Made by a program: the position numbers and the translations under genes
Shown: one piece after another, positions 13,894 to 16,835 of the stretch
Layout of the letters: each line of letters opens with the position of its first letter
How positions within the stretch are numbered: position 1 is the first letter of the stretch
From: Phytohabitans suffuscus
GTDB taxonomy: Bacteria > Actinomycetota > Actinomycetes > Mycobacteriales > Micromonosporaceae
NCBI RefSeq assembly: GCF_011764565.1
Contig: NZ_AP022871.1
Span: forward strand, 2,664,320 to 2,728,319
Reading direction: 5' to 3'
DNA length: 64,000 nt
The notes under the pieces: model-generated
Databases searched by the model: none
What the model saw: the letters and a program-made list of their open reading frames with translations, nothing else
What the model was told of the DNA's origin: nothing

Positions 13894-15326
13894 ATGACTG
13901 ATAAGCAAACCCTGCGCAACTTCGTCAACGGGGAGTACGTCGATCCGGTCGACGGTGGCTACAGCGACCTGGTCGACCCCTGTACCGGCGAGGTCTTCGC
14001 CCAGGCCCCGATCTCCTCCGAGCGCGACGTCGACCTCGCGATGAGCGCCGCCGCCACCGCCTTCGAGTCGTGGCGCGACGCGACGCCGGCCGAGCGGCAG
14101 AAGGCGATGCTGAAGTTCGCCGACGCGGTGGAGTCGCGGGCGGCCGAGCTTGTCGACGCCGAGGTGCGCAACACGGGCAAGCCGCGCCAGCTCACCGCCG
14201 ACGAGGAGCTGCCCCGGCCGTCGACGAGCTGCGCTTCTTCGCCGGCGCCGCCCGGATGCTGGAGGGGCGCTCGGCCGGCGAGTACATGGCGGGCCACACC
14301 TCGTACGTGCGGCGCGAGCCGATCGGCGTCGTCGGCCAGGTGACCCCGTGGAACTACCCGCTGATGATGGCGATCTGGAAGATCGCGCCGGCGCTGGCCG
14401 CGGGCAACGCGGTCGTGCTCAAGCCGTCCGACACCACCCCGGTCTCCACGCTGCTGCTCGCCGAGATCGCGTCGGAGTTCTTCCCGGCGGGCGTCTTCAA
14501 CGTGGTCTGCGGTGACCGCGACACCGGCCGCTCGCTCGTCGCCCACCCGACCCCGCAGCTGGTCTCGATCACCGGCTCCACGCGGGCCGGCAAGGAGGTC
14601 GCCGCGGCGGCCGCACCCGACCTCAAGCGCACTCACCTGGAGCTGGGCGGCAAGGCGCCGGTCGTGATCTTCGACGACGCCGACCTGGCCGCGGCGGCCG
14701 AGGCCATCGCGGTGGGCGGCTACTTCAACGCCGGCCAGGACTGCACCGCCGCCACCCGCGTGCTCGCCGGCCCCGGCGTGTACGACGACTTCGTGGCAGC
14801 GCTGGTCGAGCAGGCGCGGGAGACCAAGACCGGCCTCCCGGACGACGAGGACGTGCTCTACGGCCCGCTCAACAACGCCAACCAACTCGCCCGCGTGACC
14901 GGCTTCGTGGACCGGCTGCCCGACCACGCCGCGCTCGGCATCGGCGGCTCGCGCGTCGGCGACCGCGGCTTCTTCTACGCGCCCACGGTCGTGTCGGGCG
15001 TGCGGCAGCAGGACGAGATCATCCAGGACGAGGTCTTCGGGCCGGTGATCACGGTGCAGCGCTTCACCGACGAGGAGGAGGCGGTGCGCTGGGCGAACGG
15101 CGTCGAGTACGGCCTCTCCGCCTCGGTGTGGACCAAGGACCACGGGCGCGCGATGCGGATGACCCGCCGGCTCGACTTCGGCTGCGTGTGGGTCAACACC
15201 CACATCCCGTTCGTCTCCGAGATGCCGCACGGCGGGTTCAAGCACTCCGGGCACGGCAAGGACCTTTCCGTGTACAGCCTGGAGGACTACACCCGGATCA
15301 AGCACGTCATGCACAACTGGGGTTAG
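13894..15326 (+). CDS. Aldehyde dehydrogenase (gamma-aminobutyraldehyde/succinate-semialdehyde type); apparent -1 frameshift near 14212
   Basis: N-terminal part in frame 13894 (...NTGKPRQLTADEELP), remainder in frame 14070 (AVDELRFFAGAAR...ELGGKAP...GQDCTAA...EVFGPV). Junction lies in a C-run. Confidence 0.75.
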
Positions 15327-15329
15327 GCG

Positions 15330-16679
15330 ATGCCCACTTCGGAGGAAATCCACAAGCGGCGTACGGCGGCGGTGGCCCGCGGCGTCGGCAGCGTCATCAG
15401 CTCCTATGTGGACCACGCGGGCGGCGGCACGCTGACCGATGTGGACGGTCGGGAGTGGATCGACTTCGCTTCCGGCATCGCGGTCACCTCCGTCGGCAAC
15501 TCGGCTCCCCGGGTCGTCGAGGCGGTGCGCGAGCAGGTGGCCCGCTTCACCCACACCTGCTTCATGGTCGCGCCGTACGAGTCCTATGTGGCCGTCGCCG
15601 AGACACTGAACGCGTTGACGCCGGGCGGGTTCGACAAGCGCACGGCGCTCTTCAACTCCGGCGCCGAGGCGGTGGAGAACGCCGTGAAGATCGCCCGGCA
15701 CGCGACCGGGCGGCCGGCCATCGTGGTGTTCGACCACGCGTACCACGGGCGCACCAACCTCACGATGGCGATGACGGCCAAGAACATGCCGTACAAGCAC
15801 CGGTTCGGCCCGTTCGCCGGGGAGATCTACCGGGTGCCGATGTCGTACCCGTTCCGGGACGGCGGCCTCAGCGGTGCGGAGGCCGCCGCCCGCGCGCTGG
15901 ACCAGGTGGACAAGCAGGTCGGCGCGGCCAACGTGGCAGCGGTCATCGCCGAGCCGATCCAGGGCGAGGGCGGCTTCGTCGTCCCCGCGGACGGCTTCCT
16001 GCCCGCGCTGGCCGCCTGGTGCCGCGACGCCGGCGCGCTCTTCGTGGCCGACGAGATCCAGACCGGCTTCTGCCGCACGGGGTCGTGGTTCGCCTGCGAG
16101 TGGGAGGGCGCCGTTTCCGGCGCTGCTGCGCGTGCCCACGTCGCGGACCCGCGACGTGGGCACGCGCGGCGAGAGGAGTGGGCACCCGACCTGGTCACCA
16201 TCGCCAAGGGCATCGCCGGCGGGCTGCCGCTCGGCGGGGTCACCGGGCGCGCGGAGATCATGGACGCGGTGCACCCGGGCGGGCTCGGCGGCACGTACGG
16301 CGGCAACCCGCTCGCCTGCGCCGCCGCCCTGGCCGCGATCGAGACCATGCGCGAGCTGGACCTCGCCGCGGCGGCCCGCCGGATCGAGTCGGTGACGATG
16401 CCGCGCCTGCGCGCCCTGGCCGAGCGCGACCCGCGCATCGGCGACGTACGCGGGCGCGGCGCGATGCTCGCCGTGGAGATCGTCGCGCCCGGCACCATCA
16501 TCCCGGACGCGGCCACGGCCGGCGCTGTCTCGGCCGCCTGCCACCGGTCCGGCCTGCTCACGCTGACCTGCGGCACGTACGGCAACGTGCTCCGCTTCCT
16601 GCCACCCCTGGTGATCGGCGACACGACGCTGGCGCGCGCCCTGGAAATCCTCGACGGGGCCTTCGACACCACCACCTGA
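15330..16679 (+). CDS. gabT: 4-aminobutyrate aminotransferase-like class-III PLP aminotransferase carrying a 22-aa palindromic in-frame insertion
   Basis: Collinear with GabT (DHAYHGRT, ADEIQTGFCRTG, TIAKGIAGG, GTYGGNP). There is extra sequence SGAAARAHVADPRRGHARREEW between FACEWEG and APDL. Confidence 0.8.
   Translation: MPTSEEIHKRRTAAVARGVGSVISSYVDHAGGGTLTDVDGREWIDFASGIAVTSVGNSAPRVVEAVREQVARFTHTCFMVAPYESYVAVAETLNALTPGGFDKRTALFNSGAEAVENAVKIARHATGRPAIVVFDHAYHGRTNLTMAMTAKNMPYKHRFGPFAGEIYRVPMSYPFRDGGLSGAEAAARALDQVDKQVGAANVAAVIAEPIQGEGGFVVPADGFLPALAAWCRDAGALFVADEIQTGFCRTGSWFACEWEGAVSGAAARAHVADPRRGHARREEWAPDLVTIAKGIAGGLPLGGVTGRAEIMDAVHPGGLGGTYGGNPLACAAALAAIETMRELDLAAAARRIESVTMPRLRALAERDPRIGDVRGRGAMLAVEIVAPGTIIPDAATAGAVSAACHRSGLLTLTCGTYGNVLRFLPPLVIGDTTLARALEILDGAFDTTT
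16128..16167. repeat. Perfect 19-bp inverted repeat inside the gabT coding sequence
   Basis: gcgcgtgcccacgtcgcgg-ac-ccgcgacgtgggcacgcgc, flanked by a gagtggg direct repeat (16100 and 16178). Confidence 0.6.
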
Positions 16680-16760
16680 CCACCACACCCACCGCGGGCA
16701 TCGCGTTAGCTCGAATCGCCCTGATCGCCCGGGAGCCGGGCGCGCGGAAAGCCCCGGCCG

Positions 16761-16818
16761 CGCGGGAAGGCGGGCGGTCGCGCGGGAAGGCGGGCGGTCG
16801 CGCGGGAAGGCGGGCGGG
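16761..16818. repeat. 20-bp tandem direct repeat (about 2.9 copies) in a convergent intergenic region
   Basis: cgcgggaaggcgggcggtcg repeated twice exactly, plus a partial third copy. Confidence 0.7.
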
Positions 16819-16835
16819 AGGAAAGACGCGGGCGG

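What the first reader, a model, noticed from the sequence alone, without database searches (positions are those of the whole stretch)
16100..16184. In-frame ~66-nt insertion with a perfect 19-bp inverted repeat inside gabT, 10 residues upstream of the PLP lysine
Between FACEWEG and APDLVTIAKG, where other GabT proteins have no spacer, this gene encodes SGAAARAHVADPRRGHARREEW. The DNA is gcgcgtgcccacgtcgcgg-ac-ccgcgacgtgggcacgcgc (16128-16167), flanked by a gagtggg direct repeat (16100 and 16178).

This looks like a miniature palindromic element (REP/MITE-like), or a palindrome-driven assembly artefact, sitting inside an active-site loop. Homopolymer error cannot explain it.
Basis: seen in the sequence. 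Interest (0 to 1): 0.6.

Follow-up and report, generated by a model that had tools for sequence, protein, structure and literature searches.

The report
Old palindromic in-frame insert in gabT
The hairpin-forming 69-base insertion in this GABA aminotransferase gene is real and inherited: related Phytohabitans lineages carry a decayed version at the same site, it reads as a floppy extra loop on an otherwise normal enzyme, and in this species the two arms look freshly re-copied from each other, which makes it a neat but ordinary case of palindrome evolution, not an artefact and not a demonstrable mobile element.

Summary
gabT (15330-16679, +) of Phytohabitans suffuscus carries 23 extra codons (about 16113-16181). 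These contain a 22+22-nt inverted repeat (16125-16146 / 16149-16170; perfect 19+19 core, 2-nt loop). It is the only long hairpin-type repeat in the 64 kb window.

- **Not an artefact.** A second assembly of the species has the identical sequence.
- **Not unique.** Three other Phytohabitans-like gabT alleles carry a homologous in-frame insert (16-21 codons) at the same site. About seven close relatives and 90 of 94 class-III aminotransferases compared lack it.
- **Ancestrally a palindrome.** All four inserts are quasi-palindromes about the same homologous axis, and their arms are alike across species and across arms. The ancestral insert was therefore a palindrome of roughly 46-52 nt.
- **Different fates.** Three lineages decayed at about the synonymous rate (16/23 arm identity). 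P. suffuscus has 21/23, although its arms are the most diverged from the consensus, and 7 derived changes are mirrored in both arms. This points to arm-to-arm copying (template switching).
- **Gene still works.** gabT remains under purifying selection. AlphaFold gives a normal GabT fold, with the insert as its only low-confidence loop.
- **No sign of mobility.** No other copy, conserved target-site duplication or REP tag was found. The rest of the P. suffuscus genome could not be searched.

The parts
15330..16679 (+). gabT coding sequence (449 aa), 4-aminobutyrate / class-III aminotransferase of Phytohabitans suffuscus
   Evidence: ORF. PF00202 E = 1.5e-119. Exact protein P0001 is named 4-aminobutyrate--2-oxoglutarate transaminase [Phytohabitans suffuscus]. 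AlphaFold model has pLDDT 95.9 and TM 0.93-0.96 to solved GabT structures. omega is 0.12-0.23 against orthologues.
16113..16181 (+). lineage-specific in-frame insert, 23 codons (residues 262-284); boundaries uncertain by a few bases because the junction codons also changed
   Evidence: Gap of 23 columns against insert-less orthologues (EGV-EPDL). DNA. No counterpart in PDB 3q8n. It is the only low-confidence segment of the model (blocks 261-270 pLDDT 73, 271-280 pLDDT 55).
16125..16146 (+). left arm of the palindrome, GCTGCGCGTGCCCACGTCGCGG (perfect core 16128-16146)
16147..16148 (+). 2-nt loop 'AC'. The symmetry axis lies between 16147 and 16148, after the 2nd base of codon GAC (D273). This is homologous to the axis in the GGC codon of the three orthologous inserts.
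16149..16170 (+). right arm of the palindrome, CCGCGACGTGGGCACGCGCGGC (perfect core 16149-16167)
16098..16104 (+). upstream copy of the 7-nt direct repeat GAGTGGG; probably coincidental, not a target-site duplication
   Evidence: Read. The orthologous inserts have GAGCGGG or GAGCACG here, and the W258 codon is unique to P. suffuscus.
16176..16182 (+). downstream copy of GAGTGGG (codons E283-W284, conserved 'EW' at the right end of all four inserts)
16206..16208 (+). AAG codon of K293, the PLP-binding lysine in the conserved AKG motif
   Evidence: K293 is invariant among close relatives and nearly invariant among 94 diverse class-III aminotransferases. It follows strand 288-291 in the model.

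Best explanation
**History proposed.**
1. An insertion of about 63 nt, made almost entirely of a perfect palindrome of about 46-52 nt, entered the surface turn between the 'FACExEG' helix and the beta-strand that carries the PLP lysine. This happened once, in gabT of an ancestor within the Phytohabitans radiation. The ancestral arm was approximately GGCCCTGGTGCTCGTGTCGCGGG.
2. The insert kept the reading frame and is tolerated as a flexible extra loop, so it was inherited.
3. Its sequence has since drifted at roughly the neutral rate, constrained only to stay in frame. In three lineages (L002, L003, L004) the two arms drifted apart.
4. In the P. suffuscus lineage the arms were re-homogenised by arm-to-arm copying. 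The most likely mechanism is replication template switching on the hairpin (quasi-palindrome correction), one or more times and recently. This gave the present 19+19 perfect palindrome and rewrote about 10 residues of the loop at once.

**Function.** The palindrome has no demonstrated function. It is best read as a mutational by-product riding in a permissive loop.

**Shown:** the insert is real, shared and homologous across lineages; the ancestor was palindromic; the arms evolved in concert in P. suffuscus; the gene is under purifying selection; the fold is intact.

**Inferred:** the template-switch mechanism, its timing, the origin of the first palindrome, and the surface exposure of the loop.
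For: **Real and inherited.**
- Identical sequence in a second assembly.
- Homologous in-frame inserts of 21, 16 and 21 codons at the same site in P0002, P0003 and P0004.

**Ancestral palindrome.**
- The best symmetry axis falls at the homologous position in P. suffuscus, L002 and L004: 21, 18 and 18 complementary pairs of 26. Shuffle P values are 0.0002, 0.0014 and 0.024.
- In L003 the same axis is second best (15/26).
- In register from that axis, arms are as alike across arms and species as within an arm. For example, L002-left vs L004-right(rc) is 16/23, and L002-right(rc) vs L004-left is 17/23. Chance P(>=16/23) is about 1e-4.
- The minimum-energy DNA folds of L002 and L004 are the same-axis hairpin.

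**Neutral decay elsewhere.** Within-species arm identity is 16/23 in L002 and L004. This is comparable with dS of 0.22-0.40 between lineages.

**Concerted evolution in P. suffuscus.**
- Its arms are 21/23 identical to each other but only 14 and 16/23 to the consensus of the other lineages. The other arms score 18-19/23, apart from the right arm of L003 (14/23), which carries a deletion.
- All 7 derived changes of the right arm are mirrored among the 9 of the left arm. The positions-only probability is 1.5e-4.
- P(>=21/23) is 0.014 if the arms had decayed like the others.

**Tolerated.**
- omega is 0.08-0.23 outside the insert, in insert-bearing and insert-less lineages alike.
- All insert length differences are multiples of 3.
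- The AlphaFold model (94-sequence alignment) has pLDDT 95.9. Only residues 261-280 are low (73 and 55).
- TM is 0.93-0.96 and rmsd about 1 A to solved actinobacterial GabT structures.

**Mechanism is established elsewhere.**
- Correction of imperfect to perfect inverted repeats by template switching in bacteria (PMC5941160).
- Creation and maintenance of perfect hairpins with multi-base mirrored changes (PMC8794818).
- Arm homogenisation inside yeast coding genes, replacing several neighbouring amino acids (PMC8604942).
Against: - The direction and number of copying events cannot be reconstructed. Both P. suffuscus arms are about equally far from the orthologues, so neither stands out as the template.
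- An alternative, left-anchored alignment puts two 3-nt indels inside the left arm, instead of 6 nt outside it (my reading).
- Only four insert-bearing sequences exist, so the consensus 'ancestor' is rough.
- The local phylogeny (3.2 kb) is star-like. Insert-bearing and insert-less lineages do not separate: the +/- split has 6 supporting sites, mid-range among all splits. A single origin is therefore assumed, not shown.
- The origin of the first palindrome is unexplained. No donor sequence was found nearby.
- The rest of the P. suffuscus genome could not be searched. The genome scan did not even return the window's own locus, so the genome is absent from or masked in that collection.
- Surface exposure and distance from the active site were not measured, because no model coordinates were available.
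Confidence: 0.62

Rival explanations
1. The insert is a copy of a small mobile palindromic repeat family (REP-, MITE- or RPE-like) of Micromonosporaceae that can land in frame in genes. The perfect P. suffuscus copy would then be either a fresh re-insertion or the product of gene conversion from another genomic copy.
For: - The ancestral insert was a complete palindrome with both arms inside the inserted DNA, not an inverted copy of flanking gene sequence.
- In-frame palindromic insertions of this kind are known for Rickettsia RPEs and intragenic REPs, which encode 20-30 amino acids (PMC3733652).
- A 7-nt direct repeat flanks the P. suffuscus copy.
- Insert presence and absence is not cleanly separated in the local gene trees.
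- The whole P. suffuscus genome could not be searched.
Against: - No other copy of the P. suffuscus arm (<=3 and <=5 mismatches), the ancestral arm or the L002/L004 arms (<=5 mismatches) in the 64 kb window or about 40 kb of Phytohabitans loci.
- The exact 19-mer arm gave 70 single-arm hits in unrelated phyla. None has a partner arm (best partner >=5 mismatches of 19) and none is from Phytohabitans.
- Nothing in plasmid or phage collections.
- The flanking repeat is not conserved in the orthologous inserts.
- There is no unpaired GTAG/CGTC tag, and the stem of 19-23 bp exceeds the 5-13 bp of REPs (PMC3733652).
- The P. suffuscus arms are homologous to the other inserts in the same register and about the same axis (14-16/23). 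This argues for descent at this locus, not a new insertion.
Confidence: 0.14
2. The hairpin is functional in P. suffuscus and its perfect pairing is kept by selection. Possible roles are an mRNA structure that tunes gabT translation or decay, an internal U-tract-less terminator, or a long palindromic protein-binding site.
For: - The predicted stem is very stable (RNA -65.9 kcal/mol, z = -6.4).
- Seven mirrored changes look like compensatory substitutions.
- L002 also keeps a 14-bp stem that includes G-U pairs (z = -2.4).
Against: - The pairing is not maintained in L004 or L003 (z = -0.4 and -0.6). Arms there decayed at about the neutral rate.
- No Rfam family matches above noise, only sub-threshold generic hairpin hits.
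- No T-run and no terminator-like or promoter-like site.
- 19 of 19 perfect pairs with no intermediate state is what one copying event produces. Stepwise compensatory evolution would be expected to leave intermediates (PMC8794818).
- A 40-bp perfect palindrome is far longer than transcription-factor half-sites need (my knowledge).
Confidence: 0.08
3. P. suffuscus simply retained the ancestral perfect palindrome unchanged, while the other lineages decayed. No re-copying is needed.
For: A perfect palindrome is the inferred ancestral state.
Against: - The P. suffuscus arms are the most, not the least, diverged from the consensus of the other arms: 14 and 16/23 against 18-19/23 (L003's deleted right arm, 14/23, aside).
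- With dS of 0.22-0.30 to its relatives, 38 unconstrained paired bases would not stay perfect. P(>=21/23) is 0.014 even under the observed decay of the others.
Confidence: 0.04
4. The palindrome is an assembly or sequencing artefact, for example a PacBio hairpin-adapter chimera.
For: - The complete genome AP022871 was assembled from PacBio RSII reads with Canu only (PMC7692728).
- The window carries at least one homopolymer indel relative to the other assembly.
Against: - The second assembly is identical through the insert over 7,350 nt, with a single homopolymer difference elsewhere.
- Homologous inserts occur at the same codon position in three independent data sets.
- The insert is in frame and the downstream gene is intact and under constraint.
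Confidence: 0.01

Closest known systems
Quasi-palindrome correction / template-switch homogenisation of inverted-repeat arms (Ripley model; E. coli thyA and rpsL hotspots; comparative evidence in Proteobacteria, PMC5941160; RNA hairpins, PMC8794818; yeast coding genes, PMC8604942)
   Same: - A perfect inverted repeat in one lineage stands against imperfect repeats at the orthologous site in relatives.
- The multi-nucleotide changes are clustered and mirrored in both arms.
- Several neighbouring amino acids were replaced at once inside a coding gene.
   Different: - The arms here (19-22 nt) are longer than most reported cases.
- The substrate is itself an old inserted palindrome, not native gene sequence.
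- The event is inferred from four sequences without a resolved tree, and the template arm cannot be named.
Rickettsia palindromic elements (RPE) and intragenic REPs (PMC3733652)
   Same: Palindromic DNA inserted in frame in a housekeeping protein-coding gene, adding about 20-30 residues that the protein tolerates.
   Different: - RPEs and REPs are multi-copy families (tens to thousands of copies per genome). REPs carry GTAG/CGTC terminal tags and 5-13 bp stems, and RPE-1 is about 100-150 bp.
- Here no second copy was found, there is no tag, the stem is 19-23 bp, and the host is an actinomycete.
Coding palindromes in Nematomorpha mitochondrial genes (PMC6649704)
   Same: Long perfect inverted repeats embedded in functional protein-coding genes and kept perfect over time.
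   Different: - In Nematomorpha both arms encode conserved protein regions, and there are many such repeats per genome.
- Here the arms encode an unconstrained extra loop, and there is a single case in 64 kb.
Lineage-specific loop insertions in fold-type I (class-III) aminotransferases such as GabT (PDB 3q8n, 4atp, 1sf2)
   Same: The fold and catalytic residues are as in solved GabT structures (TM 0.93-0.96). The extra residues sit in a turn between secondary-structure elements.
   Different: None of the solved structures, and 90 of 94 diverse relatives compared, have more than 4 extra residues at this turn.

Membership tests
GabT / class-III (fold-type I) aminotransferase | Aminotran_3 domain over the whole length | tested here: met
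   PF00202 E = 1.5e-119, split in two stretches by the insert. PDB GabT hits reach E = 1e-174.
GabT / class-III (fold-type I) aminotransferase | PLP lysine and the D-E-x-Q motif conserved; fold as in solved GabT | tested here: met
   K293, D241, E242 and Q244 are conserved in 94 diverse relatives. Model pLDDT is 95.9, with TM 0.93-0.96 and rmsd about 1 A to 3q8n, 4atp and 4ffc.
REP (repetitive extragenic palindrome) | Multi-copy family in the genome (tens to thousands of units) | tested here: inconclusive
   No other copy in the 64 kb window or Phytohabitans loci. No palindromic copy among 185,579 species genomes. The remaining roughly 10 Mb of P. suffuscus was not searchable.
REP (repetitive extragenic palindrome) | Unpaired GTAG or CGTC tag at one end; stem 5-13 bp (PMC3733652, Table 1) | tested here: not met
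   The arms begin GCTGCGCG and end CGCGCGGC. The only CGTC lies paired inside the stem. The stem is 19-22 bp.
REP (repetitive extragenic palindrome) | Association with a RAYT (Y1) transposase gene | not tested
   The ORFs of the window were not screened for Y1 transposases. The whole genome is not available here.
MITE | Terminal inverted repeats plus a target-site duplication created on insertion | tested here: not met
   GAGTGGG flanks the P. suffuscus copy (16098, 16176). The orthologous inserts have GAGCGGG or GAGCACG upstream (6/7 or 4/7 matches), and the exact repeat depends on a P. suffuscus-specific W258 codon.
MITE | Several dispersed copies; related autonomous element | tested here: inconclusive
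   Same searches as for REP. None was found in what could be searched.
Rickettsia palindromic element (RPE)-like in-frame element | Palindromic insert that keeps the frame of a functional gene | tested here: met
   Inserts of 69, 63, 48 and 63 nt are all in frame. omega is 0.08-0.23 and the fold is intact.
Rickettsia palindromic element (RPE)-like in-frame element | The same element inserted in many different genes of the genome | tested here: inconclusive
   No other gene in the window carries a comparable hairpin. The rest of the genome was not searchable.
Template-switch (quasi-palindrome correction) product | Perfect inverted repeat in the focal lineage, imperfect inverted repeat at the orthologous site in relatives | tested here: met
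   Same homologous axis. Complementary pairs of 26: 21 (with a perfect run of 19) against 18, 18 and 15.
Template-switch (quasi-palindrome correction) product | Clustered multi-nucleotide changes that are mirrored in the two arms and raise complementarity | tested here: met
   There are 9 and 7 derived changes in the two arms, and all 7 of the right arm are mirrored in the left. The positions-only probability is 1.5e-4. Caveat: the consensus ancestor comes from only three other sequences.
Template-switch (quasi-palindrome correction) product | Identifiable template arm (unchanged) and copied arm (changed) on a resolved branch | tested here: inconclusive
   Both arms are about equally far from the orthologues (14 vs 16 of 23). 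The tree is unresolved.

The most novel reading that the evidence does not exclude
The insert is the first visible member of an undescribed family of small palindromic elements in Micromonosporaceae. Like Rickettsia RPEs, these would insert in frame into housekeeping genes, and could be lost precisely or refreshed by conversion. That would explain both the patchy presence among Phytohabitans lineages and the pristine P. suffuscus copy.
Probability: 0.1. Interest if true: 0.6.

Novelty: new member of a known kind. Interest (0 to 1): 0.32.

Why it matters
This is a clean natural example in a high-GC actinomycete with three features. A whole palindrome was inserted into the core of a PLP enzyme and survived as an extra loop. 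Its arms decayed neutrally in some lineages. In one lineage they were re-perfected in a single step that rewrote about ten amino acids.

It shows that mirrored 'compensatory' changes and bursts of non-synonymous change can come from a mutational copying process without selection. That is a useful caution for covariation-based RNA structure calls and for positive-selection scans. It also marks a permissive site in GabT for loop engineering.

It does not reveal a new kind of system. For annotation purposes the gene is an intact gabT.

Tried and rejected
- **Other copies nearby.** I searched the window for the P. suffuscus arm with <=3 mismatches. I searched the window and the Phytohabitans loci for the P. 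suffuscus, ancestral, L002 and L004 arms with <=5 mismatches, and with blastn-short using whole inserts. Only chance 10-14-mers turned up, and there was no donor sequence in or near gabT.\n- **Genome-collection scan with the exact 19-mer arm.** It returned 70 single-arm chance matches in unrelated phyla. None is palindromic and none is from Phytohabitans. The window's own locus was not returned, so nothing can be said about the rest of the P. suffuscus genome.\n- **Two metagenome scans for more insert-bearing gabT alleles.** The right-junction pattern gave 0 hits. The left-junction pattern gave 8 hits, none of them in gabT.\n- **Plasmid and phage collections:** no match.\n- **Rfam at a permissive threshold:** only sub-threshold generic hairpin hits to plant miRNA models.\n- **Promoter/terminator scan:** nothing found.\n- **Trees.** Trees of gabT, the upstream aldehyde dehydrogenase gene, and a 3.2 kb concatenate were all star-like. 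The number of gains and losses of the insert therefore could not be settled.\n- **First AlphaFold run.** A shallow alignment with >77% identity failed (pLDDT 56). It was replaced by a run on a diverse 94-sequence alignment.\n- **Target-site duplication reading of GAGTGGG:** rejected because the repeat is not conserved in the orthologous inserts.\n- **12-13-nt inverted match.** The L004 left arm matches gabT about 260 nt downstream on the opposite strand (window 16425-16436). I judged this to be chance (E = 0.08-0.3, and exact only in L004).
Full report
**Observation**

The window comes from Phytohabitans suffuscus. The 449-aa product of ORF 15330-16679 (+) is identical to a protein named 4-aminobutyrate--2-oxoglutarate transaminase [Phytohabitans suffuscus]. 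That protein is on record on a 10.1 Mb contig and on a 363 kb contig of a second assembly. It is a class-III aminotransferase (PF00202, E = 1.5e-119), and the Pfam match is broken in two at the finding's position.

The inverted repeat is as described:
- The arms are 16125-16146 and 16149-16170 (22 nt, one mismatch), with a perfect 19-nt core and a 2-nt loop.
- It is the only hairpin-type repeat of this size in the 64 kb window.
- It folds far better than shuffled sequence: RNA -65.9 kcal/mol, z = -6.4; DNA -32.5 kcal/mol, z = -7.0.

Two small corrections apply. The insert is 23 codons (69 nt, residues 262-284, about 16113-16181). The 'gagtggg' repeat lies at 16098-16104 and 16176-16182.

**Not an artefact**

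Locus L001, from assembly GCA_054778935.1, matches the window over 7,350 nt with no mismatch. The single difference is a 1-nt gap in a C-run at about window 14212, and the match covers the whole palindrome. The complete genome AP022871 was a PacBio-only Canu assembly (PMC7692728). A homopolymer difference is what one expects between two independent assemblies, and the palindrome is common to both.

**Not unique**

Among the closest homologues, three have lengths of 442-447 aa and carry an insert at exactly the same place:
- P0002, from a JGI assembly (L002)
- P0003, from a JGI metagenome (L003)
- P0004, from Phytohabitans sp. ZYX-F-186 (L004)

Aligned, the four inserts read:

| Sequence | Peptide across the site |
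|---|---|
| P. suffuscus | EG-AVSGAAARAHVADPRRGHARREEWA-PDL |
| P0002 | EG-SVPGPGARH--AGTRNEHRGQAEWA-PDL |
| P0003 | EG-CVPGPGVGA--AGLRHQ-----EWA-PDL |
| P0004 | EG-GVPGPGARV--AGTRPEHQGQAEWV-PDL |

P. flavus, P. houttuyneae, strain LJ34, four metagenomic relatives and every Micromonospora sequence examined have plain EGVEPDL.

In a 94-sequence alignment of class-III aminotransferases down to 33% identity, the TG...AK segment is 24 residues in 83 sequences and at most 28 in any other. It is 40-47 only in these four. The closest solved structure (3q8n) has no counterpart for query residues 262-281. The insert is therefore a lineage-specific, inherited feature.

**The insert was a palindrome from the start**

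I scanned each of the four sequences for its best symmetry axis.
- In P. suffuscus, L002 and L004 the top axis falls at the homologous position, after the second base of the G(A/G)C codon. The counts are 21, 18 and 18 complementary pairs of 26, with shuffle P values of 0.0002, 0.0014 and 0.024.
- In L003, which has a 15-nt deletion on the right side, the same axis ranks second (15/26).

I then wrote each left arm, and the reverse complement of each right arm, in register from that axis.
- The eight 23-mers are mutually similar across species and across arms. For example, L002-left vs L004-right is 16/23 and L002-right vs L004-left is 17/23.
- The chance probability of >=16/23 at this base composition is about 1e-4.
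- The majority sequence is GGCCCTGGTGCTCGTGTCGCGGG.
- The minimum-energy DNA folds of L002 and L004 are the same-axis hairpin.

Both arms lie inside the inserted DNA. I found no donor in or around gabT. Where the first palindrome came from stays open.

**Decay in three lineages, re-perfection in one**

Outside the insert, gabT has dS of 0.22-0.40 between all pairs and omega of 0.08-0.23. Within L002 and L004 the two arms are 16/23 identical, and arms of different species differ to the same degree. The insert DNA therefore drifts at about the neutral rate.

P. suffuscus is the exception:
- Its arms are 21/23 identical to each other.
- They are nevertheless the furthest from the consensus of the other lineages (14 and 16/23, against 18-19/23 for the others, except L003's deleted right arm at 14/23).
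- Nine positions of the left arm and seven of the right differ from that consensus.
- All seven right-arm changes are mirrored in the left arm. The positions-only probability is 1.5e-4.

Simple retention of an ancestral perfect palindrome is thus rejected, and so is independent drift. The arms evolved in concert.

The known process that does this to short inverted repeats is template switching during replication or repair (quasi-palindrome correction). It converts imperfect to perfect repeats in bacteria (PMC5941160). It creates and maintains perfect stems with multi-base mirrored changes (PMC8794818). It homogenises arms inside coding genes and replaces several neighbouring residues at once (PMC8604942).

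This is my preferred mechanism, but it is inferred. I cannot name the template arm, because both arms are about equally far from the orthologues. An alternative alignment places two 3-nt indels inside the left arm instead of 6 nt outside it.

**The protein**

- Insert lengths differ only by multiples of three (69, 63, 48, 63 nt).
- The gene is under purifying selection in insert-bearing lineages as much as in insert-less ones.
- A first AlphaFold run on a shallow alignment failed (pLDDT 56).
- A second run on the diverse alignment gave pLDDT 95.9 and pTM 0.94. The only weak stretch is at residues 261-280 (block means 73 and 55). It sits between helix 255-259 and strand 288-291, which leads to K293.
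- The model superposes on solved actinobacterial GabT structures with TM 0.93-0.96 and rmsd about 1 A.

From general knowledge of fold-type I enzymes, the N-terminal end of the lysine-bearing strand points away from the cofactor. I therefore expect a surface loop and not an active-site loop.

**Mobile-element tests**

- No second copy of any arm exists in the window or in about 40 kb of Phytohabitans loci.
- The exact 19-mer arm occurs 70 times among one genome each of 185,579 species. Every occurrence is a single arm in an unrelated organism, with no partner arm.
- Plasmid and phage collections give nothing.
- The 7-nt flanking repeat is exact only in P. suffuscus, where it depends on the lineage-specific W258 codon. 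The other inserts have GAGCGGG or GAGCACG upstream.
- REPs as defined in PMC3733652 have an unpaired GTAG or CGTC tag, 5-13 bp stems and many copies. The first two features are absent here. The third could not be tested for the whole genome, because the scan did not return P. suffuscus at all.

I therefore do not file the insert as a REP, MITE or RPE. It does resemble RPEs and intragenic REPs in being a palindrome that adds about 20 residues in frame to a working protein.

**Function of the hairpin**

- No Rfam family matches above noise.
- There is no T-run, terminator-like site or promoter-like site.
- Pairing is not conserved in L004 or L003.

I see no evidence for a selected structure. A very stable stem inside an mRNA could still affect expression, and only experiment can settle that.

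**Open point**

The local phylogeny is star-like. The gabT tree pairs P. suffuscus with insert-less P. flavus (90% bootstrap) and L003 with insert-less LJ34 (86%). That signal is confined to parts of the gene, the neighbouring gene gives a different tree, and in 3.2 kb every split has 3-18 supporting sites.

A single insertion during a rapid radiation, followed by lineage sorting or recombination, is the simplest reading. Repeated loss cannot be excluded without a genome-scale tree.

**Verdict**

This is a real, inherited, palindromic in-frame insertion in an intact gabT. The ancestor was a palindrome. The arms were re-homogenised in P. suffuscus, most likely by template switching. It is a good textbook-style instance of known processes and not a new kind of element.

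Noticed in passing
window ~14212 (within 13894-15326, + strand): The aldehyde dehydrogenase gene just upstream of gabT is frameshifted in the window. It appears as two overlapping ORFs, 13894-14343 and 14070-15326. The second assembly (L001) has one more C in a C-run (C5 vs C4) and an intact 477-aa gene. This is probably a homopolymer error of the PacBio-only assembly.
   Followed up: yes
window 16755-16817: A tandem repeat of a 20-nt unit (CGGTCGCGCGGGAAGGCGGG, 3.2 copies, 97% matches) lies in the short spacer between gabT and the convergent Robl_LC7 gene.
   Followed up: partly
window 16680-16835, compared with L002 3377-4642, L003 1493-2602, L004 3386-4648, L007 3323-3955, L008 3326-4069: A hipA-like toxin kinase gene (Couple_hipA + HipA_C) follows gabT in three relatives (incomplete at the contig end in L003). 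It is truncated in P. houttuyneae and strain LJ34, replaced by a periplasmic-binding-protein gene in P. flavus, and absent in P. suffuscus, where the tandem repeat sits instead.
   Followed up: partly
gabT alignment columns about 350-600 (window about 15680-15930): P. suffuscus and P. flavus are unusually alike in this stretch (6-10 differences per 200 nt, against 10-26 to the others), but not elsewhere in the gene. L003 and LJ34 show a similar local closeness. This hints at recombination between Phytohabitans lineages within gabT.
   Followed up: partly
window 15943-16185 (- strand): Because the axis falls in register with the codons, the reverse strand reads almost the same peptide through the palindrome (AARAHVAGPRRGHA). 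This is a by-product of the symmetry, and the minus-strand ORF is not a gene.
   Followed up: no
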